Shown: positions 5,134 through 58,130 of the stretch, in pieces | How the letters are laid out: every line of letters begins with the position of its first letter | Numbering within the stretch: the first letter of the stretch is position 1 | DNA from: Narcine bancroftii | Taxonomy: Eukaryota | NCBI RefSeq assembly: GCF_036971445.1 | Contig: NC_091476.1 | Location: 107,446,001-107,510,000, forward strand | Direction of reading: 5' to 3' | Length of the DNA: 64,000 nt | Translations under genes and position numbers: made by a program | Notes under the pieces: generated by a model | Database searches by the model: none | Told to the model about the DNA's origin: nothing | The model's input: only the letters and a program-made list of their open reading frames with translations

Positions 5134-5238
5134 ACAAAAGTTCCCAAAAAATAAATTCATTCTTGGAGATCTGACACTGTCTTTCAAGTTCAGGGGTGCC
5201 TGAATTGTAATCTTCTGATTGTAATCAATTATGTGATT
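5134..5238. repeat. Left arm of a ~105-bp near-perfect inverted repeat
   Basis: Its reverse complement matches 6453-6558 except for one indel in a homopolymer. Confidence 0.95.
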
Positions 5239-6452: not shown

Positions 6453-6558
6453 AATCACATAATTGATTACAATCAGAAGATTACAATTCAGGCACCCCTG
6501 AACTTGAAAGACAGTGTCAGATCTCCAAGAATGAATTTATTTTTTGGGAACTTTTTGT
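6453..6558. repeat. Right arm of the ~105-bp inverted repeat
   Basis: Reverse complement of 5134-5238. Confidence 0.95.
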
Positions 6559-21367: not shown

Positions 21368-21553
21368 TGTCACATTTGTGGCCCGAAATGTGAAATTAAT
21401 AACATCATCACCACATGCTTTACCAGTTGAACATCTCAGTGTCTTTATTTTCCTGCTTCCCTTATTTCATCATCCTGCACCTTCCACCTCCAGTGCATAC
21501 CATCTGACTTCCGGTCAGGTTAATACATATCATGCATATTCATTACCATGACA
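21368..21553 (-). repeat. 3' LTR of the Gypsy element
   Basis: TGTCA...TGACA. The adjacent TCCCTCCTTTC (21554-21564) is the polypurine tract on the - strand. Confidence 0.95.
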
Positions 21554-22049
21554 TCCCTCCTTTCACCAGAAATAAACTTTATATCTTTATGTTTAAATGT
21601 AAACACTTTAACACTATTAATAGCATTTTTCTGCCTTCTGAACCAACAAAACAACTTCAAATTCAAAACAAAAACAACTTCAAATTCCCTCTTCACAAAA
21701 TGTAACATAAACATGTTATAACCAAATGTAATATAATAGCTCAACTGTTCTTCTGTAATTATACTAATACAATGCTCACCTCATATGCAAAATGTAAACA
21801 TTTAAATTTATACACCTCACATGTTTAAATTCCAATACTTTTGTTTTTTTTTATTTAATGCCAAATAGTCGACTAAACAAAAATGAAATTCATACAGCAC
21901 TCATACATGTACTTTATGATGTATTGATCAAATCATTGTCCAAATGTTCCCATTATCATTTCTCTTCCTTGGTGAGTAACATTACTGCGCTTCATTGAAA
22001 CTCATTCCAACTATCACAAACTTTCACTTTCGTGATAATGCGGGCACGA

Positions 22050-23200
22050 TTAGAAATATGGCACAAAATCTTCATATCGTTTAGGTGGTTTCCTGTCCCG
22101 TCTCGGCCTTCCTGCAGTGCTACTGTGGCAACTTGGTTGTTCACCCTCAGCACCGGAAACACTGCTCGCTGCGGCCTCTGGTGTTTCTGGTACTCTGCTG
22201 GTAACTACCTCTGGAACATCATCTGGTCCCTCAGGTTGAGCAACTCGTACTGGATTTCCAACCACTTCACTCGGTGCCGCTCTGGATTGGTACTTTTTGA
22301 CACCAGACACATTTCTTTTGTACAGGACTCCAGCTGGAGACTTGACTGTCACCATACTGCCGCTTCTGGATACAACAGTGTAGAGTTGATGGTAATAAGC
22401 TTACCACCACTCTCTTGCCTCACCAGAACATTATCTCCAGACATGATGTCTGAGTACCTGGCCCCATGCCTCGAGTCTGCATACAGCTTTGCTGCTCCCT
22501 TCTTTTCAGCATCGTGGTCCCTCATCTCCTGGTCGTCCCAGATTTCCTTTATTTCGGGCATTTTTGTGCGGATTTTCCTCCCAAAAAGTACTTCTGCTGG
22601 ACTTTTTCCTGTGGTTGCATGAGGCATTGCCCGATAGACAGCTACAGAGGATAGCAATGCTTCTCTCCAGTTCTGTCCTTCTGCATGAGCAATCCGTAAT
22701 CGTTTTTCGATGGACTGATTTTGTCTCTCAACTTCCCCATTGGCTTGCGTCCATTTAGGAGTTACTTTATGATGGTGGATACCTGTGGTCCTCATGTATT
22801 CAGCAAATGTCTCTGAAATGAACTGTGGACCATTGTCAGAGTATAGCGTAACAGGGAATCCATATCTCGCGAAGATCTCTGCCAATGCTTGTATTGTTTT
22901 TTCAGTGGTCATTGACCTCATCACAGAGTACTCATAGTATCTGCTGTGGTAATCTAGAACTACCATGATTGTCTCACCAGTTGGTAAAGGTCCGAGAAAA
23001 TCAACAGCTACATCGATCCACGGTCCTGTCGGGAGTTGCGTACTCCGGATCGGTTCTGGAGGATTACTCCTACTTGTGAGTTGACACCCATGGCAGGTTT
23101 TGACGAATTTCTCTGCGTCTTTATCACAACCTGGCCACCATACTTTACTCCTGAGGTTTTGCTTGGGTACCAACAATACCTAGGTGTCCTTCATGAGCTA
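22050..23200 (-). pseudogene. Gypsy integrase (frameshifted)
   Basis: WWPG...CHGCQ zinc finger, VAVDFLGP, SDNGPQF, NGEVERQN (DDE), and basic tail RPRRDRKPPKRY. Confidence 0.92.
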
Positions 23201-23327
23201 ATGATACGATCTTCGGTCTCAACCTCTGTGGTATCACCAATCTACACCCCCTCAATACACACTGCCCGATGCAACAAAGTTCATCTCTAATGGGAATATA
23301 TGCCTTGTGAATGCACTTGTCCCATTG

Positions 23328-24617
23328 TCAACTTTGGATACATTCTCTAACTTCCATGAGTTCTGAGTCATGTTCGGACTCTCTCTTGACTTCCCTCGTT
23401 GTCACAGCTTCCGGTGTCGACTGAATAGCTATGAAGTGTACAAAGCTCTCTGCTTCTGTCCCCAATTCTGACTTGGATTGTGGGCATCCATCTTTCAACA
23501 ATCTGGACAGCGGATCAGCAATGTTTGCTTTCCCCGCAATATGAACTACTCTGTACTTGTACGGTTGGAGTCTGAGCACCCATCGTTCTATCCTGGCACA
23601 CGGTTTGGACCTGGCGGCATAGATCACCTCCAATGGTTTATGGTCCGTGATGAGTTCAAATTCAATGCCATACAAATATGCATGGAATCTCTCGCAGGCC
23701 CATGGAAGTCCGAGTGCTTCTTTCTCTGTCTGAGAATATCTCCTTTCCACATCTGTCAAAGATCTGCTGGCATAGGCAATGATTCTTGGTCCCACAACAC
23801 GCATCTGGACCAACATGGCTCCTAAACCAACAGGACTAGCATCCGCTATGACTTTGGTTGGTGCAGCCGTATCATAATACCCAAGAGTACTGGCATTCGT
23901 CAGACTTTGTTTCAGAGCTGTGAATGCTTCCTTCTGCTCAAGGCCAAAATGGAATGGTACACCTTTCCTGGTTAGTTTCCTCAATGGTTCTGCCAGTGTA
24001 GCAAAGTTAGGGATGAACTTTGCGCAATAATTAACCAATCCCAAGAAGCTCCTCATCTCCGTTGCATTCTGGGGTTCACGTGCATCTGCAACAGCTTTCA
24101 CCTTGGCATCAGCTGGGTTCAGTCCTTCCCGTGTAAGCCTGTGTCCCATGAAGTCCATCTCTGAGACACCAAACTGGCACTTGTCTCCATTCACGGTAAG
24201 GCCTGCCCCCTGTCTTCTGGATAGCACATGCCTCAAACGTCTGTCATGCTCTTCCTTTGTAGCCGCATGGACTATGATGTCATCAGAAATGTTGGCAACT
24301 CCAGGAATGCCTTGAATCACTCGATGGATTTCGTACTGGTAGATCTCAGGAGCTGCATTGATGCCGAACGATAGTCTCTTGTACCGGTACAACCCACAGT
24401 GAGTCACAAATGTTGTCACGTCCCTGGATTCTGGGTCCAGCTCTAATTGATGATAGCCCAATTTTAAATCAATTTTTGAGAACACCTGACTGGTAGTTAA
24501 CTCCTGAAATACTTCCTCCACTGTTGGTATGGGGTGTCGTTCTCGAATTATAGCTTCATTGGCCATCCTCATATCAACACACAGTCTTATGTCACCATTT
24601 GGTTTGGGCACAATCAC
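23328..24617 (-). pseudogene. Gypsy reverse transcriptase / RNase H
   Basis: IRLCVDMRMAN, FSKIDLKLGYHQL, LSFGINAAPE, NISDDII, ADASPVGLGA, RYSQTEKEAL, TDHKPL. Confidence 0.95.
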
Positions 24618-24629
24618 TACTGGACTGAC

Positions 24630-26160
24630 TCATTGTGTTGAATGTTCTACAGGTTGAATAATGTCTTGCTCGATCAACTCTTTGATTTTGGCCTCGACTT
24701 TCCCACGAAGTCCAAATGGAGTTCTGCACACTGGTTGCACCTTGGGTTTGACAGTTTTGTCCACTGCTAGCTTTAGTTGTCGACCTTTCAGCTTTCCTAC
24801 TCCCTGGAAAACTGCGGGGAATTCTTGATTCATATCTTTGTATGACTGAACTGAATTGACACGAGCTCCAATATGAAGTATTGCCAGGTCTTGTGCCGTG
24901 CGTCTACTCAGCAATGGTTCTCCCCTCTCGTCTATGACAACGAACTCTGCTTCGGTGTACTTGTCACCAGCTTCAACAGTCGCAGTGAAACATCCAATGG
25001 TCTGCAATGGCTTGGTTGCTGTGTGTGGATACAGTTTCTTTGAACACTTCTTTGATGTACAAATGATCTTTTTTCTTTTCAATTTCTCCCATAAGTGTCG
25101 GTCAATTACATTACTGTCACTGCCTGAGTCTACAATGACCAGAACTGTCACACCACCAATTATCACTGGGACCTTCTCATCATGTAAATCATTCAATGTA
25201 AACTGATAGTATTTCCTGGTTGTCATCATCATCGTCACTTTCTGGGTCACCTTCTATAAGGCGAATAGTGCCTTTCTTTCCAGGATACTTTCCTTTACCC
25301 CAAGCTTTGCCCTTAGAAGCTGTACTCTTCCCATTCTGGTTTGCATTTGACTTGCTTTTGCACTTCTTTGCAAAGTGGTCCTTACCTCCACACTTTCTAC
25401 AAACTTTGCCTTTTGCTGGGTAGCATGGGTCTTTCCAAAATGACCTCTGTTTCCACATCTGTAACACTCCAAGTCATGTGTCGGCATATTTCTTGGCTGG
25501 CTATGGCTATGCGAGAGCCTATTTACTTGTTGACCAACTTTGTCTTTACTGGGCTGGCTTGAGTTGTCTTTCAGTTTCATGGTATGAAATTGCCCCTCAA
25601 CAGCCTCTAATGCAGCAGCCATTGTTAAAGCATTGGTAAGTTTCAACTCACCCCCTTTTTACAGCAGTCGCCTTCTGAGTTTGTCTGATCTGCAGTGCTG
25701 CACAACTTGATCCAATAACTGGTTGTCCAAATCAGCTACCACGTCATTGCATCCCACAGCCAGTTGTCGCAATCTCGTCATATACTGGGCAACCGTTTCT
25801 CCATCTTCTTGTTTTGTTTTGCGAAACAAATGGCATTGAAATGTAGCATTCGGTGTCACCACATAGTGTGCATTCAATGCATCTACGGCTTTCTGGTATT
25901 CCTCCTTCCTTCCAGTATTCGAAAGCGTCTTAAAAGTTTCCCGAACTGCGGGTCCTGCGGTGAAGAGAAGTAACACCCTCCGCTGCGCTTTCTGTTCCGC
26001 CGTACTGCTATCGAGAAATAGGCCACAACTGTCGGCGTAGGCTTCAAATTCTTCCAGCCATGCCTTCCACTTCACCCTCACAGTGCTTGCATCACCCGTC
26101 GGGTCAAAATGAGGAACACCTCGAAGTGCTAGAAATTCAGCTCCTGTGACTGCCATGAAG
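24630..26160 (-). pseudogene. Gypsy gag and aspartic protease (broken by frameshifts and stops)
   Basis: Gag W..WLEEFE...LLLFTAG and QEDGETVAQY, two zinc knuckles (CYRCGNRGH; CRKCGGKDHFAKKC) and protease VDSGS. Confidence 0.9.
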
Positions 26161-26205
26161 AAAATCTTCCAGCTCAAAGCCACCGATTCAAAATCCAAAA
26201 TGTGT

Positions 26206-26218
26206 ATCCTCGTCGCCA
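26206..26218 (-). promoter_or_regulatory. Primer-binding site complementary to tRNA-Ser(GCT)
   Basis: The + strand reads ATCCTCGTCGCCA, the 3' end of vertebrate tRNA-Ser(GCT) plus CCA, 1 nt from the 5' LTR. Confidence 0.8.
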
Positions 26219-26219
26219 A

Positions 26220-26405
26220 TGTCACATTTGTGGCCCGAAATGTGAAATTAATAACATCATCACCACATGCTTTACCAGGTGAACATCTCAGTGTCTTTAT
26301 TTTCCTGCTTCCCTTATTTCATCATCCTGCACCTTCCATCTCCAATGCATACCATCTGACTTCCGGTCAGGTTAATACATATCATGCATATTCATTATCA
26401 TGATA
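26220..26405 (-). repeat. 5' LTR of the Gypsy element
   Basis: Differs from 21368-21553 at 5 positions by manual count. Confidence 0.95.
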
Positions 26406-50264: not shown

Positions 50265-50635
50265 GCATGAAACACAAAAGTCCGCAGACACTATGAATGC
50301 AGTAAAAACACAGACATGGGTGGAGGAACATGGCATCCATAGGTAAAGATATATAACCGACGTTTTGGGTCTGACCCCTTCTTCAAAAAACAGGCAGGCA
50401 CCTGAATTAAAAGGCCAGGGGAGAAGGGGAGAAAGGATAGGTTCTCCATGTCTAATTATCACCTTTTGTCTGTTGGTCCATGCTCTTTCCCCTGCCCTTT
50501 TCTTCCCTTCTCCCCAGCCTTTTAATTCAGGTGCCTGCCTGCTTTTTGAAGAAGGGCACAGAACCCAAATATCAGTTATATATCTTTACCTACTACGGAT
50601 GCCATGTTCCTCCAGCATTTCCGTGTTTTCACTGG
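50265..50635. mobile_element. Palindromic Penelope-derived fragment
   Basis: CCCTTCTTCAAAAAACAGGCAGGCACCTGAATTAAAAGG is mirrored by CCTTTTAATTCAGGTGCCTGCCTGCTTTTTGAAGAAGGG. The arms extend ~130 bp. Confidence 0.7.
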
Positions 50636-51152: not shown

Positions 51153-51299
<147 letters not shown>

Positions 51300-51476
51300 T
51301 AGCTAGAAGGTTTTCTTTTACCAAAAATAGACTTTGTTCTCATTATTTTATTTACAAAAAGAAAAACATTCAAAGTTTATTCTCACCCTTAGTGAGTATG
51401 TGAGAGTGTTTGAGTGTGTGTATGTGTCTACATGAGTGTCTGAGTAAAGGTAAAGTTTCATTATTGAAACATAATG

Positions 51477-52267
51477 CAGTACAACTCCGATTATCCAAAA
51501 TGGTCGGGACCAGGCCTATGTCAGATAAACGTTTGTTTTGGAGAACTGTTAATTTTTTTTAAAACAGCCCAGTAGCAACAGCAAATCACTTGTATCAATG
51601 TTCAAACAACAAACAACAAAGGAAAGCTTTTTAAGTGTTAAAATAATGTTTCATTCTCACCAAAATAATGCTGCCCGTGGCCGATCCCCGACACATCCCC
51701 AACACTGTCGTTGATCCCCAGGGAGGCTTCCTGGGACAGTGGAACACGCACTGGCGAGACAGCAGGTTCCTGACTCCCTGGTCACTGGAACTCCTGACGC
51801 CAACTCCTTCCCTAGGCCTACCACACACACACTCCGGGGAGTTCGGTGTGTGTGAGCGGTAGTAGGCTGAGGGGATGTTTCAGAGTCAGCGTTGGGACTC
51901 TGGTGTGCCGAGAGGGGAGGGAGGGAAGGGGAGAGGAGGGAATGCCACTGAGACCAAGGTCCTGCTCCTGCCCAGGAGGCCACTCTCCTTGATGACGCCA
52001 GGACAAGGGATTCTTCCGAACGCCACTTGTGGCTGGGAGACAGTGGCACGCACTTGGAGAGGACAAGTTGGAGAGAAAAGTCTATAGGGGAAGGTAAGGA
52101 AGAAATAGAAAGAGAGGGGGGGAGTTACCTGAAACGAGGACAATCTTCATTCTAATTTCATGTCAGGTGAATTTTTTTTCAACCTGTGAGGTCAGTTCGG
52201 TTCTGAAAAAACTTTGGATAAATGAGGATTTTATAGAATCCGATTTCAGATAATTGAAGTTGTACTG
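51477..52267. mobile_element. Non-autonomous Tc1/mariner (Tigger-like) element
   Basis: TIRs CAGTACAACTCCGATTATC / GATAATTGAAGTTGTACTG, with TA on the right flank (TG on the left). Confidence 0.7.
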
Positions 52268-52339
52268 TACTATATTAGAATGTTACATACATGAAATTTT
52301 TTAACTTTTCTCCACCATAAGGTGTGAGTGAGTGTGAGA

Positions 52340-53989
52340 ATTTTGGGGTCTGGTGGTGTTTGACATTTTGGGGTTTGGTGGTGGTTGATATTTTGGGTTC
52401 TAGTGGTGTTTGACATTTTGGAGTTTGGTGGTGGTTGATATTTTGGGGTCTGGTGGTGTTTGACATTTTGGGGTCTGGTAGTGGTTGATATTTTGGGGTC
52501 TGCTGGTGTTTGACATTTTGGGGTCTGGTGGTGTTTGACAATTTGGGGTCTAGTGGTGTTTGACATTTTGGGGTCTGGTGGTGGTTGAAATTTTGGGGTC
52601 TGGTGGTGTTTGACATTTTGGGGTCTGGTAGTGTTTGACATTTTGGGGTTCTGGTGGTGTTTGACATTTTGGGGTCTGGTGGTGGTTGACATTTTGGGGT
52701 CTGGTAGTGTTTGACATTTTGGGGTCTAGTGGTGTTTGACATTTTGGGGTCTGGTGGTGGTTGACATTTTGGGGTCTGGTGGTGTTTTACATTTTGGGGT
52801 CTGGTAGTGTTTGACATTTTGGGGTTCTGGTGGTGGTTGACATTTTGGGGTCTGGTGGTGGTTGACATTTTGGGGTCTGGTAGTGTTTGACATTTTGGGG
52901 TCTGGTGGTGGTTGACATTTTGGGGTCTGGTGGTGTTTGACATTTTGGGGTCTGGTGGTGGTTGACATTTTGGGGTCTGGTGGTGTTTGACATTTTGGGG
53001 TCTGGTAGTGTTTGACATTTTGGGGTTCTGGTGGTGGTTGACATTTTGGGGTCTGGTGGTGGTTGACATTTTGGGGTCTGGTAGTGTTTGACATTTTGGG
53101 GTCTGGTGGTGGTTGACATTTTGGGGTCTGGTGGTGGTTGACATTTTGGGGTCTGGTGGTGGTTGACATTTTGGGGTCTGGTAGTGTTTGACATTTTGGG
53201 GTCTGGTGGTGGTTGACATTTTGGGGTCTGGTGGTGGTTGACATTTTGGGGTCTGGTAGTGTTTGACATTTTGGGGTCTGGTAGTGTTTGACATTTTGGG
53301 GTTCTGGTGGTGGTTGACATTTTGGGGTCTGGTGGTGGTTGACATTTTGGGGTCTGGTGGTGTTTGACATTTTGGGGTCTGGTAGTGTTTGACATTTTGG
53401 GGTTCTGGTGGTGGTTGACATTTTGGGGTCTGGTGGTGTTTGACATTTTGGGGTCTGGTGGTGGTTGACATTTTGGGGTCTGGTGGTGGTTGACATTTTG
53501 GGGTCTGGTAGTGTTTGACATTTTGGGGTCTGGTAGTGTTTGACATTTTGGGGTTCTGGTGGTGGTTGACATTTTGGGGTCTGGTGGTGGTTGACATTTT
53601 GGGGTCTGGTGGTGTTTGACATTTTGGGGTCTGGTAGTGTTTGACATTTTGGGGTTCTGGTGGTGGTTGACATTTTGGGGTCTGGTGGTGTTTGACATTT
53701 TGGGGTCTGGTGGTGGTTGACATTTTGGGGTCTGGTAGTGTTTGACATTTTGGGGTCTGGTGGTGTTTGACAATTTGGGGTCTAGTGGTGTTTGACATTT
53801 TGGGGTCTGGTGGTGGTTGACATTTTGGGGTCTGGTGGTGTTTGACATTTTGGGGTCTGGTAGTGTTTGACATTTTGGGGTTCTGGTGGTGGTTGACATT
53901 TTGGGGTCTGGTGGTGGTTGACATTTTGGGGTCTGGTAGTGTTTGACATTTTGGGGTCTGGTGGTGGTTGACATTTTGGGGTCTGGTGG
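52340..53989. repeat. 25-bp minisatellite, ~66 units, consensus ATTTTGGGGTCTGGTGGTG(G/T)TTGAC
   Basis: A period of 25 is read directly. A few recurrent unit variants occur, including a 26-bp form. Confidence 0.98.
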
Positions 53990-55312
53990 ATTGCAACAAG
54001 CTCCTCTGTCTCATTCAAAATTCCCCTGAAATCCTATTATCCTAAAGAGCCAGACGATTGACGACATTCCTGTGAATCATCTAGTGGATTTTAAGGCGTG
54101 AAAGCCAATCTACAAACCTGAGCTGCTGTTAGATATCCCAAAAGCAGACTTTCCATGCAGGTATACATACATTGTCATCATTGTACATTGTCACATTCTC
54201 TTTCTATTTACACCATTGCCTCCACTGTGACACCTTATCATTACTCCCCCTGTGTTGGAAGTGGTGAACTACAGTGTTCCTCACTCCTGCAGTCACTCCC
54301 ATTTCTCCTCCAGCAGCCCCTCCTCGCTACACAGTACTGTGGTTAAAGTCGCCTTGCTCAAGTTCAGACAGTCCCAGTTATTGGACCTTGTGTTCAAGGG
54401 CTGCTGCCTGGTCATTTGGAAGGCCAAGCTTTCCTGAACGAATAGGGGAGGTTTGTTCAGTGAGGTCATTAGCTGTGCTTTTGAATGAGGTCATCTCCAC
54501 TTTGGGCAGTGCAGTGGTGTGGCCTAGTAGTGCTGCTGCCTCACAGTGGCTTCACCCCTGACCTGTAACCCTGTGAGCTTTCATTAGATGTTTCCTTTCA
54601 CATCCCATAGACATGTGGGCCAGTTAGTTAATCAACCACTGCAAATTGCCTTTAGTGCGTGGGTGACTGGTGTGATGTGGGGAGAGTTGGTGGAGTGTAG
54701 GGAGAGAAGCTATGAAAGGGTGGTTGAGGTCGATGTGGGCTTGGTGGTTGAAGAGTCTGTTTCCATGCTTGATCTGTCTTTTACTAAAATCATCAAGACC
54801 TTTAAACTTCTCAAATCATTGCCCAGTCAGAGGCAAGACTTGGGCCCACTGTCCTATGGCTGACAGGTACATTTAAAGAGGTTTTTAACCTGGAACTTCA
54901 ACAAATGGGAGCTCTCTATTTCCCAACAGTGCCTTTCAATTTGACTTGGAGATCGAGAGTGAGCAAGAGAGAAAGAAAGAGAGAATCATCTAATTATTCT
55001 GGTGTTGAATGAACAGTTTATAGTTCAGAGAGTATTTTTAATCTAACCCCGGGGTTAGGAACCTGAGTGTGTTCAAATCTAAAATCAAATGGAGTATAAA
55101 GTCAGGCAGGATTCTCCCAAGCATCTAACTCCAAATCTCCTCCATTTTTGCTCAGTGGGTTTGGTTAAAATTATTGCTTTGTTTTAAATTGTAGGTTTGA
55201 CTCCACTAATTATGTTGATTGTTAATCTTACTCTTTGAAGCCTTTGTTTACTTCTCTGCATTTCTTTCTCTTTTTGCATTTGCTGGGTAATTTCCTTCCT
55301 TGCTCTCCGAAG

Positions 55313-55339
55313 AGATATTTGAGTCTGCGCACAATCAAT
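55313..55339 (+). CDS. PHLDB1: Candidate 27-nt PHLDB1 microexon within the PH domain (phase 0/0), RYLSLRTIN
   Basis: Pyrimidine tract with TGC motifs, CTCCGAAG acceptor, GTATGT donor. It lies in the intron where mammalian PHLDB1 has a short optional insert (recalled as KRFFRFTMVTE). Confidence 0.6.
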
Positions 55340-55553
55340 GTATGTATGAACTGCAGCTCTCTGTGTTGTATGTCAACCTTGCACTGTGGTTTTCCAGGCC
55401 TTGTCTCTGTTCTATGTCCAAACAACTTTGGGTCACAATTGCCTTTTAATGATCAAGGGTCCATGACTCATTGAGTTTTCTGGAGGCCAGTGAGCATGAG
55501 CGAAGAGCAGGGTTTTGTTTGATTGCTAGGGTACGAACAGCATGTTCCTTGGG

Positions 55554-55786
55554 GGAAAGTCATGCTCTTGGGGTATCAAACAACACCTCAGATTTGTGGG
55601 TTGGTTTTCGTTCCTTAAAATATACAAGTCGATTCACAGGAGTGTTGTCAGTCAAAATGTGGCATTTTAGGATAAAAGGATTTTAAAGGCATTTTAAAAG
55701 AGACAGAGGTGCTTGCTGCAATCCAATGTAGAAAATCTGGGAATGTCAACCATCACCAGAATCCCAAAATTCTCACACTCACACAC
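55554..55786. repeat. Diverged inverted copy of the sequence that flanks and seeds the minisatellite
   Basis: The reverse complement of 55554-55725 aligns to 53987-54154. The reverse complement of 55742-55786 aligns to 52322-52368. Confidence 0.85.
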
Positions 55787-56577
55787 TCATAAACACACAC
55801 TCAAATATACACACTTTTATCGTACACGCACACACATGCAACACGTACACACACAGCCGCGCACACAAATCCACTTGTCAGGGTTTTCCTGATGTTCAAC
55901 AACCAGCTGTGATCCTCACTCCTTGCGGGATAGTTTAATACTTTATTTGTAGCCATGGTGATTTTTGCTGCCACGTTTTGCTCAGTAACTGCCTTGGTCA
56001 CAAACAGTCTGTTTGCAGCCGAAGTGGAAGGAAAGTTTCAGGACAAAGTACTTTATTTTTGATACCACCACAAAAATAACTCTTCTTGATCCCTCCGTAC
56101 ATTGGCCGACGTGGAGAGGGAAGTAAGGAAAACACAGGGTCAGATTGATCTGTGCCAGCTTCAGAGAGGACGAAGGAGCAAGAATTTCATAGTTTAGGGA
56201 GCAGGCACCTGAAGCCACTAAGTTCTCAAAAGGCCAGACCTGAAAGGGATACAGCCTTTATTTCCAATTCAGATCGCTGGATAGTCATCAGCCCTGACGA
56301 ATCCCTCAGCTATCCTATCTCATGGAATTTAAGAAAACAGATTGTAGTAAACCACTGTTATGCCATGATTGGCTGCTGCCAGCTGGACACGCCTCCCATA
56401 GGCCCTTGCATGTTCCCTTTCTCTTTGCTTTGATCAGTCAATGAGGTTAATGGTAGTTCCAATCTTTAGTTAATAAAATTGATGTACCATCAATAATCAC
56501 AAATGCCTGAGAGTTTCCCAACATTAGCCTTTTGTGGTTATTGATGGTACAGCTGGGAAGTGAAAAGTGCCTTAGAG

Positions 56578-57353
56578 CACTGGCATCATTAGGGGGGGGT
56601 GCGGACCACACTGGGTGACACCATCAGAAGGGGTGACACCAAAATGACTGTCTATAAAATTTTTGTACAATATTTCAGCATAAATTTATTTTTTATAAAA
56701 ATATCCCTGTAGCTAGTTAAAACAGCAAAAATATTTTTCGTAAGCCCAGCTTAGATGTATCAATATACGTACAGGTCTAAAACTCGATGCTACGCAGTAC
56801 TGTGGTTAAAGTCGCATTGCTCAAGTTCAGACTGTCCCAGTTATTGGACCTTGTGTTCAAGGGCTGCTGCCTGGTCATTTGGAAGGCCAAGCTTTCCTGA
56901 ACTTGAATAGGGGACCTTCTAATGAACTCCCCAGAGCTGTCACTATTACCCAATTTCAATGATGCTTCGAATCACGTGGTTTCGTCTGCACGCGCTACAA
57001 GCATGCGCTGTTGTTTTTGTTGCGGCTGCTACTTTTGTCAAGTAACCTGGTGTTTTAGCTACAATATTGTGGTAATTAGAATTTGTTTTCTTACTGAATT
57101 TTCAGTTTAACTACATGAAACGATGTAAATGTGAATACATTTAGGCTGTGTAATTTTAATTTTGCTAGTTGTTTATCTCACTACCATGCTATTACATTCA
57201 GAGATACACGGGAATTACGATTTACGAGTGATATTAGTACAAAAAACATTACTGAGGATTCTGTATGATCTGGTACGGGAGGAGGTCCATGGGTGGGTGA
57301 GGTGATTCCATGAGTTACCACACTGGGTGACACCACCCCTAGTGACACCACTG
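56578..57353. mobile_element. Non-autonomous hAT-type element
   Basis: TIRs CACTGGCATCATTAGGGG / CCCCTAGTGACACCACTG, subterminal GGGTGACACC repeats, and a degenerate 8-bp TSD CCTTAGAG / CCTCAGAA. Confidence 0.75.
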
Positions 57354-57965
57354 CCTCAGAATAAGTGAAGAATGCTGCCCCTGGTGATTACTGGACACGG
57401 AAAAAGTTACACCCATTTTCAGAACAGATTTCTGGACCCAAAGGTGCTCCATGACTAAAGAATTGCTATTACTGTGTACCTCTATTGGAAGGTCACAGTC
57501 AGCTCGCACATACGGAGACCCCCCCTCCACACAGCTACGTGACAGTGTCCGTGTTATTTGTTCTCATGGTGTAGGCTGGAGTGAGTAAAGAAAGGTCAGG
57601 ACCCAGGGGAGAACTTTGCACCTTTTCTTTGGAATCATCCCCACAGGATCATTGATATTCAGTTCAGGGAAAAGGTGGTTTAATGGTGCGTTCCAGAAAA
57701 ATGCACATTTGATGAGCCAGTTCCTCAGGTTTTCATTGGTAGCCTCAGTGTGGATTCGGTACTTCAATCTCTGGAGCAGGTGAACCCAAGAGTATACCCA
57801 TGGAGTAAAGGAGAGAGCAAGGTAATATATTATACCCAATTAGGTGCCCAGTTTATTAGTTCATTGATGTGGCACACTCCACTTCCTTTGAACGTCATAA
57901 ACTCTTCACATCAAGCCTTGTTTATTTTTGAAGTGAAAACGTGATCATTGTCCTTGAAAAATTGA

Positions 57966-58130
<165 letters not shown>

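What the first reader, a model, noticed from the sequence alone, without database searches (positions are those of the whole stretch)
52322..55786. Birth of a minisatellite recorded in place: a single monomer survives in an inverted paralog
Seen: the reverse complement of 55554-55786 reads GTGAGTGTGAGA-ATTTTGGGATTCTGGTGATGGTTGAC-ATT...TGGATTGCAGCAAGCACCTCTGTCTC...GACTTTCC. The same sequence, visibly diverged, appears on both sides of the array: GTGAGTGTGAGA-[ATTTTGGGGTCTGGTGGTGKTTGAC]x~66-TGGATTGCAACAAGCTCCTCTGTCTC...GACTTTCC. One arm of an old ~230-bp inverted duplication therefore has one 26-bp unit and the other has ~66. The single unit is bounded by ATT at both ends (slippage microhomology) and lacks the GGGG run that the expanded unit has. 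Inference: gaining the G-run and/or fold-back between the arms triggered the expansion.
Basis: partly seen in the sequence, partly recalled or inferred. Interest (0 to 1): 0.7.

Follow-up and report, generated by a model that had tools for sequence, protein, structure and literature searches.

The report
Minisatellite grown inside a local insertion
In a vertebrate intron, a 25-base unit is repeated about 66 times inside a backwards copy of nearby DNA that splits an older jumping-gene remnant, while the likely source 1.4 kb away holds one unit; this is a clear but ordinary record of how such repeats likely begin, with no evidence for the proposed trigger.

Summary
A 25-bp minisatellite (65 full units plus a 17-nt partial, 52340-53989) sits inside a ~230-bp segment whose inverted paralog (55554-55786, 75-79% identical) has one unit. 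Four pattern searches found the segment and the unit only here in a 3.3-Gb genome, so it is not a dispersed repeat. New: the array-bearing arm is an insertion. It splits an old LINE 3' end whose two halves lie 0-4 nt apart in 18 of 18 other copies, with no target duplication or poly(A). That makes the single-unit arm the likely donor. A second, younger templated insertion splits a transposon in the same intron. The proposed triggers are unsupported: G versus A cannot be polarised (P(ancestral G) about 0.58), 29 of 65 units lack four GG tracts, and arms this divergent and distant are unlikely to fold back. No outgroup was found. Single-unit paralogs occur for 3 of 22 arrays in 1.26 Mb. Verdict: a well-ordered new example of a known process; interest 0.27.

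The parts
51175..51260 (+). Penultimate coding exon of a PH-domain gene (name PHLDB1 recalled from peptide resemblance, not from a call)
   Evidence: Translation and GT donor at 51261; neighbouring exons hit Pfam PH below the curated cut-off, E 2.4e-4 and 1.1e-3
51261..57989 (+). Last intron of that gene, 6,729 nt; holds everything described
   Evidence: GT at 51261, AG ending 57989, last exon 57990-58130
51316..51393 (-). Host LINE 3' end, tail-side half
   Evidence: Matches dispersed copies L010-L027; upstream ORF in L013 has weak zf-RVT hit, E 0.012
51394..51445 (+). GT-rich outer end of the insertion; probably from the donor's GT tract, but not shown
   Evidence: Position fits; alignment score 40 is below that of 7 of 7 unrelated GT tracts, 48-64
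51446..52323 (-). Short dispersed retroelement-tail fragment (51446-51476 + 52268-52323) nested in the GT tract
   Evidence: Contiguous in other copies L069-L082
51477..52267 (.). Non-autonomous DNA transposon with terminal inverted repeats (Tigger-like, label recalled), nested in the tail fragment
   Evidence: TIRs; about 40 scored copies at 73-83%; loose ends at 51477/52269
52324..52339 (+). Outer flank of the copied arm
   Evidence: 15 of 16 identical to rc 55786-55771
52340..53989 (+). 25-bp minisatellite, 65 full units + 17-nt partial; diverged 5' edge, homogeneous remainder with higher-order repeats
   Evidence: 13 off-core changes in units 1-10 (250 nt) vs 4 in units 11-65 (1,375 nt), p 3e-8
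53987..54160 (+). Inner part of the copied arm (homology clear to 54154; 6 further nt before the LINE resumes)
54161..54265 (-). Host LINE, second half, resuming about 3 nt after the first half ends
   Evidence: Gap 0-4 nt in 18 of 18 copies, 3 nt in 13
55554..55786 (-). Likely donor arm with single 26-bp unit (55745-55770) and the 19-nt segment (55726-55744) that the copy lacks
   Evidence: no split-repeat signature found around it (weak test)
54326..54449 (+). Likely donor of a second, direct local duplication
   Evidence: 96% identical to 56789-56914; only these two places among 40 scored candidates
56793..56913 (+). Second templated insertion, replacing about 13 nt of a dispersed MITE (56576-57300; hAT-like label recalled)
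   Evidence: MITE halves adjacent in other copies; GCTA and TGAAC shared at the junctions, extra donor-like patch at the right junction

Best explanation
The array lies inside a short inverted copy of nearby intron DNA that splits an older LINE 3' end; this copy was likely written in during microhomology-mediated break repair, and its single unit likely duplicated later by slippage at ATT and then expanded by ordinary minisatellite turnover, while the likely donor kept one unit. Shown: the split host, nesting of two later transposon pieces, uniqueness of arm and unit in the genome, loss of 19 nt in the copy, and an old 5' edge with a young homogeneous body. Inferred: repair mechanism, seed duplication at ATT, a separate TGG-mediated deletion at the right edge, and growth by slippage or unequal exchange. 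No function is indicated; it is most likely neutral intronic turnover. No special trigger is needed.
For: LINE halves 0-4 nt apart in 18 of 18 copies (alignment; left-half scores 48-106 vs background 21-57). No target duplication or poly(A) at the junctions. Arm patterns only at this locus, reversed-pattern controls 0; unit 56 of 56 hits in the array. Ages are compatible with the nesting: LINE halves p 0.135+-0.040 and 0.104+-0.031 to the family majority, arms 0.21 pairwise (about 0.105 each), tail fragment 7 of 87, MITE 0.112+-0.011. A second templated insertion in the same intron, 96% identical to its donor inside a host about 10% diverged, shows such insertions arise long after the host and need no reverse transcriptase from it. 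Array polarity and repeated blocks of up to 11 units. Germline templated insertions with microhomology are described in PMC8421209 (passages).
Against: No unexpanded ortholog was seen: the only run from another label, X5, is identical where laid and holds array units. The 18 LINE copies were the best hits to the right half, so that half's age is biased young. All ages overlap within error, so order rests on nesting alone. Junction microhomologies of the main insertion (AGT, GTA, read by eye) are 3 nt, old and not tested. The outer GT piece is not specifically homologous. ATT is shorter than the 5-10 bp of the Haber-Louis model. Absence of a split host around the donor is weak evidence: the automated split test missed both known cases.
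Confidence: 0.76

Rival explanations
1. The seed repeat was made in the same repair event as the insertion: the polymerase copied the unit, re-primed at ATT, then jumped at TGG past the 19 nt; later turnover enlarged it.
For: Both junctions are adjacent, inside the insertion, and use 3-nt microhomology; one event would explain both. The second insertion carries an extra donor-like patch at its junction. Multi-template events are reported in PMC8421209 (passages).
Against: The oldest units are only about 5% off the core types, against about 11% expected since the insertion, though homogenisation can reset this. The donor has TGA, not TGG, at the matching site.
Confidence: 0.22
2. The donor already had a short array when copied and later contracted to one unit.
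For: Parsimony alone does not exclude a two-to-one contraction; no outgroup. Paralogs with fewer but more than one unit exist nearby (4 vs 2 units).
Against: The donor shows no partial second unit beyond ATT; the 19 nt after it is no better an inverted echo than 789 of 5,000 shuffles. Exact contraction from a long array is unlikely (inference).
Confidence: 0.1
3. The insert is a reverse-transcribed patch: the LINE's RT switched to the host pre-mRNA and back during integration, or a cDNA patch repaired a later break.
For: Insert polarity is that of a first-strand cDNA of the + strand transcript, the same strand as the LINE's cDNA; LINE and duplication ages overlap. Class 2 TSIPs are proposed to be RNA-derived (PMC5110952, passages).
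Against: Return to within 3 nt of the same LINE position is what two break ends give; the second insertion is in a DNA transposon, direct, and much younger than its host. This rival changes the template, not the order of events.
Confidence: 0.15
4. One reading: A-to-G gain made a G-run or G-quadruplex, or the arms folded back, and this caused the expansion.
For: 0 of 65 units carry the donor's A at either site; G4Hunter 1.08 for type A vs 0.65 for the tandem monomer. Human CACNA1C shows a similar fixed A/G difference from its single-copy precursor (PMC12452837, passages). In long single-stranded DNA, 75%-identical distant repeats can interact in yeast (PMC10164571, passages).
Against: A fixed difference is expected from any founder unit. 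S>W transitions outnumber W>S 2.3-fold, giving P(ancestral G) 0.58. 29 of 65 units (types B, C, E) lack four GG tracts; array mean G4Hunter 0.97, maximum 1.16. The same paper states instability is lost at 75% homology and falls steeply with spacer length in double-stranded DNA.
Confidence: 0.15
5. Arm and unit belong to a dispersed repeat that usually carries the array.
For: The DNA search is insensitive: it missed the 75% inner-arm paralog itself.
Against: Patterns with 2-3 mismatches at three places in the arm and for the unit found no third locus; none in 1.26 Mb of BLAST.
Confidence: 0.03

Closest known systems
Minisatellite birth models of Haber and Louis 1998 and Taylor and Breden 2000 (as described in PMC3389668, passages and section 3.4; originals not read)
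   Same: Single unit bounded by a short direct repeat; array ends in an incomplete unit.
   Different: Direct repeat is 3 nt, not 5-10; the terminal partial (17 of 25 nt) comes with loss of 19 nt of flank, which points to a second junction.
Lineage-specific VNTR from a single-copy precursor: human CACNA1C intron 3 30-mer (PMC12452837, passages)
   Same: Intronic; single precursor differs from the array consensus at a few sites, with an A/G difference found in no unit; variant units and higher-order blocks.
   Different: The precursor here is a paralog 1.4 kb away in the same genome rather than an ortholog, and the direction is fixed by a split transposon. No expression or population data here.
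Microhomology-mediated templated insertions (MMB-TI, PMC8421209, passages) and class 2 TSIPs (PMC5110952, passages)
   Same: Copy of other genomic DNA at a junction with microdeletion, short microhomology, no target duplication, no poly(A), donor intact.
   Different: About 230-280 nt from 1.4 kb away, between the within-100-bp templates of the first and the distant templates of the second; ancient and fixed; later hosted a minisatellite.
TE-derived tandem repeats (Ahmed and Liang 2012, PMC3389668)
   Same: Unexpanded paralogs show the starting unit; two such cases lie in the flanking 1.26 Mb.
   Different: The unit here is from single-copy DNA, not from the transposon that hosts it.

Membership tests
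Minisatellite | Tandem unit of about 10-100 bp, many similar copies with variant units | tested here: met
   25 bp x 65.7, 92%; variant map
Minisatellite (VNTR) | Copy number varies between individuals | not testable with these tools
   Only short-read contigs of at most two samples
Haber-Louis birth | Precursor flanked by 5-10 bp direct repeats | tested here: not met
   ATT, 3 nt; chance of 3 or more is 0.055
Taylor-Breden birth | Incomplete terminal unit | tested here: met
   17-nt partial at 53973-53989, but accompanied by loss of 19 nt of flank, so it may come from a later deletion
Templated insertion (MMB-TI / class 2 TSIP) | Inserted into a recipient with small deletion, donor intact | tested here: met
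   Host halves 0-4 nt apart in 18 of 18 copies; donor at 55554-55786
Templated insertion (MMB-TI / class 2 TSIP) | No target duplication or poly(A) | tested here: met
   Junction sequences
Templated insertion (MMB-TI / class 2 TSIP) | Microhomology at both junctions | tested here: inconclusive
   About 3 nt by eye at an old junction; clearer (4-5 nt) in the second insertion
Class 1 TSIP / LINE transduction | Target duplication, poly(A) signal and tail | tested here: not met
Transposon with long TIRs or dispersed repeat | Further copies in the genome; paired ends flanked by a target duplication | tested here: not met
   No third copy; one arm alone interrupts the LINE
G-quadruplex-driven unstable minisatellite (CEB1 type; PMC5491262 seen as search listing only) | Stable G4 in the unit | tested here: inconclusive
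   G4Hunter mean 0.97, maximum 1.16 (usual cut-off 1.2, recalled); only GG tracts plus one GGGG; no biophysical test

The most novel reading that the evidence does not exclude
The minisatellite was seeded by the repair polymerase in the very event that wrote the templated insertion (re-priming at ATT, jump at TGG), making microhomology-mediated templated insertion a direct route to minisatellite birth, recorded here with donor, host and product side by side.
Probability: 0.22. Interest if true: 0.55.

Novelty: new member of a known kind. Interest (0 to 1): 0.27.

Why it matters
Minisatellite starts are hard to see, and known models explained only 6% of TE-derived human cases (PMC3389668). Here one intron holds the precursor, a direction marker that needs no outgroup (the split LINE), nested elements that bracket the date, and an old-to-young gradient in the array. 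That makes it a tidy test locus for whether repair junctions seed arrays. It does not show a new mechanism or any function, and similar precursor-array pairs are common in this genome.

Tried and rejected
Dispersed repeat or long-TIR transposon: no third copy. The DNA search was too insensitive to count as evidence. Hairpin around the monomer: fold z -0.39 to -0.50; 789 of 5,000 shuffles score as well. Coding reading: the arm alignments show indels and no shared open frame; the long open frames through the array follow from a stop-free unit. Microexon in the intron: 3 candidates by pattern, none in the arms, not followed. Outer GT piece as proven homology: failed its control. Gene conversion between arms: marginal only. 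Outgroup from public runs: 5 runs listed, 4 flagged as possible source; X5 (share 0.17) gave four short pieces without differences at depth 2-5, so it is low coverage of the same or a near-identical genome. Reads were laid only on the array's edges, so allele lengths remain open. Automated split-host scan: 0 of 39 pairs, missing both known cases, so uninformative. Literature: no paper held all terms for a minisatellite born in a local templated or paralogous copy; the library lacks most subscription journals, so this does not show absence. No supplements were read.

Full report
Observation. The array is at 52340-53989, period 25, 65.7 copies. Its flanks match the reverse complement of 55554-55786: 75.3% over 227 nt, E 6e-35, and 88.9% over the first 45 nt. 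The right arm has one 26-bp unit at 55745-55770 bounded by ATT. Of 65 full array units, 57 are 25 bp and 8 are 26 bp; the closest type differs from the monomer at two A/G sites. The right arm has 19 nt after the unit that the left arm lacks; there a 17-nt partial unit meets the flank at TGG.

Setting. The window is on contig C17 of a 3.3-Gb genome; repeat content suggests a shark or ray (recalled, untested). The locus is the 6,729-nt last intron of a PH-domain gene on the + strand; the name PHLDB1 is recalled from the peptides.

Not a dispersed repeat. Patterns from three places in the arm, with 2-3 mismatches, gave 2, 1 and 2 hits, all at this locus, and reversed controls gave 0. The 25-bp unit gave 56 hits, all in the array. 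The DNA search missed the known inner-arm paralog, so only the pattern searches carry weight.

Direction. A search with 53990-55560 returned a dispersed repeat at 54161-54257 (40 of 759 candidates scored, 18 other copies fetched). The same copies also match 51316-51393. In 18 of 18 copies the two halves are 0-4 nt apart, 3 nt in 13. The repeat has a poly(A)-like end and an upstream frame with a weak zf-RVT hit, so it is read as an L1-clade LINE 3' end. Thus 51394-54160 is an insertion into it, with about 3 nt lost and no target duplication or poly(A). Inside the insertion, a short retroelement tail interrupts the GT-rich end, and a 790-bp MITE interrupts that tail. Without these and the array, what is left is the copied arm plus about 50 nt of GT-rich sequence. 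That piece fits the donor's longer GT tract by position but scores below 7 of 7 unrelated GT tracts. The array arm is therefore derived, and since no third copy was found, the right arm is the likely donor. Around the donor only low-complexity matches were found (40 of 206 scored).

Timing. Distance to family majority: LINE halves 0.135 and 0.104, tail fragment 7 of 87, MITE 0.112; arms 0.21 from each other. These overlap, so the events fall in one old period and their order rests on nesting. The array is younger or homogenised: 13 off-core changes in the first 10 units against 4 in the next 55 (p 3e-8), with repeated blocks of up to 11 units.

A second case in the same intron. 56793-56913 is a 96% direct copy of 54326-54449 that replaces about 13 nt of a MITE whose halves are adjacent elsewhere. 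In the 11 copies fetched the junction is continuous; GCTA and TGAAC are shared with the donor, and an extra donor-like patch sits at the right end. The host is about 10% diverged, so this insertion came long after it. This supports repair-type templated insertion at this locus.

Mechanism. Most likely a break in the LINE was patched by copying about 230-280 nt from 1.4 kb away in reverse (inferred; features match PMC8421209 and PMC5110952, passages). The unit then duplicated at ATT, a TGG-mediated deletion trimmed the right edge, and slippage or unequal exchange enlarged the array (inferred). Three nucleotides of microhomology has chance 0.055, short of the 5-10 bp model. The two junctions could also come from one multi-switch repair event; only orthologs can separate these readings.

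The proposed triggers. Non-CpG transitions in 19 MITE copies run 2.3-fold toward A/T, giving P(ancestral G) 0.58; loss in the donor is at least as likely as gain in the copy, though GC-biased conversion within arrays could pull the other way (recalled). G4Hunter averages 0.97; 26 of 65 units have four GG tracts, 29 lack them, 10 are other variants. For fold-back, yeast data show loss of instability at 75% homology in duplex DNA but interaction in long single-stranded DNA (PMC10164571, passages), so it is unlikely but not excluded, especially when the arms were young. The unit region is only marginally more alike than the inner arm (p 0.03-0.14).

Base rate. In 1,264,000 bases (window plus 600 kb each side) TRF found 33 non-simple arrays of period 10-100 with 4 or more copies; 6 have 20 or more copies at 90% or better. 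Eleven 84-bp arrays were set aside. Of the other 22, three have a single-unit paralog: this one, L187:12-317 and L125:6058-6176; two more have paralogs with fewer units. I inspected 4 of the other 21 by eye; five more with boundary-spanning hits elsewhere were not inspected. There are 39 local pairs within 10 kb with little distant coverage, 12 of them in one complex; some will be transposon ends. Neither ingredient is rare; this is the only long array in the sample seen with a short local single-unit donor.

Outgroup. None was obtained. Four of five runs may be the source sample; X5 is identical where laid and contains array units.

Literature seen. Passages: PMC3389668 (plus section 3.4), PMC5110952, PMC8421209, PMC10164571, PMC12452837. 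Abstract: PMC6614823. Listing only: PMC5491262. Taylor and Breden 2000 and Haber and Louis 1998 were not read. Earlier scan notes describe similar precursor-array pairs in other genomes (unchecked), which lowers novelty.

Verdict. Observation confirmed with corrections; monomer-as-precursor supported and now polarised; triggers unsupported. New member of a known kind, interest 0.27.

Noticed in passing
window 56793-56913 vs 54326-54449: Second, younger local templated insertion (direct, 96%) splitting a MITE in the same intron, with 4-5 nt junction microhomology.
   Followed up: yes
window 21368-26403: LTR retrotransposon on the - strand with 184-bp terminal repeats 97.8% identical; gag-pol-like frames interrupted by stops.
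   Followed up: no
window 5136-5238 and 6453-6555: Perfect 103-bp inverted repeat, 1.2 kb apart, with no distant match in 1.26 Mb; possibly a young DNA transposon.
   Followed up: no
window 50340-50592: Hairpin element with 102-nt arms, 80% complementary, 49-nt loop, just upstream of a PH-domain exon.
   Followed up: no
window 54505-54780: Very decayed sequence resembling a tRNA-derived SINE in the spacer between the arms (recalled resemblance, untested).
   Followed up: no
L187:12-317 vs L198:9437-9572; L125:6058-6176 vs L181, L124, L111: Two more minisatellites with single-unit paralogs (30 bp x10 and 30 bp x4, the latter also seen as a dimer), inside dispersed repeats.
   Followed up: partly
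L177-L180 (C17 107.095-107.118 Mb): Nested inverted segmental duplications, 67-99% identical, with tandem units differing in number between copies.
   Followed up: no
L098-L112: Eleven 84-bp tandem arrays that look like a C2H2 zinc-finger gene cluster (label recalled).
   Followed up: no
L106:4394-8297; L121:2755-3684; L195:250-1505: Very young minisatellites: 20 bp x195 at 99%, 22 bp x42 at 100%, 19 bp x67 at 96%.
   Followed up: no
run X5 on window 53940-55900: Run under a different organism code matches without differences at low depth; label or mixture unexplained.
   Followed up: no
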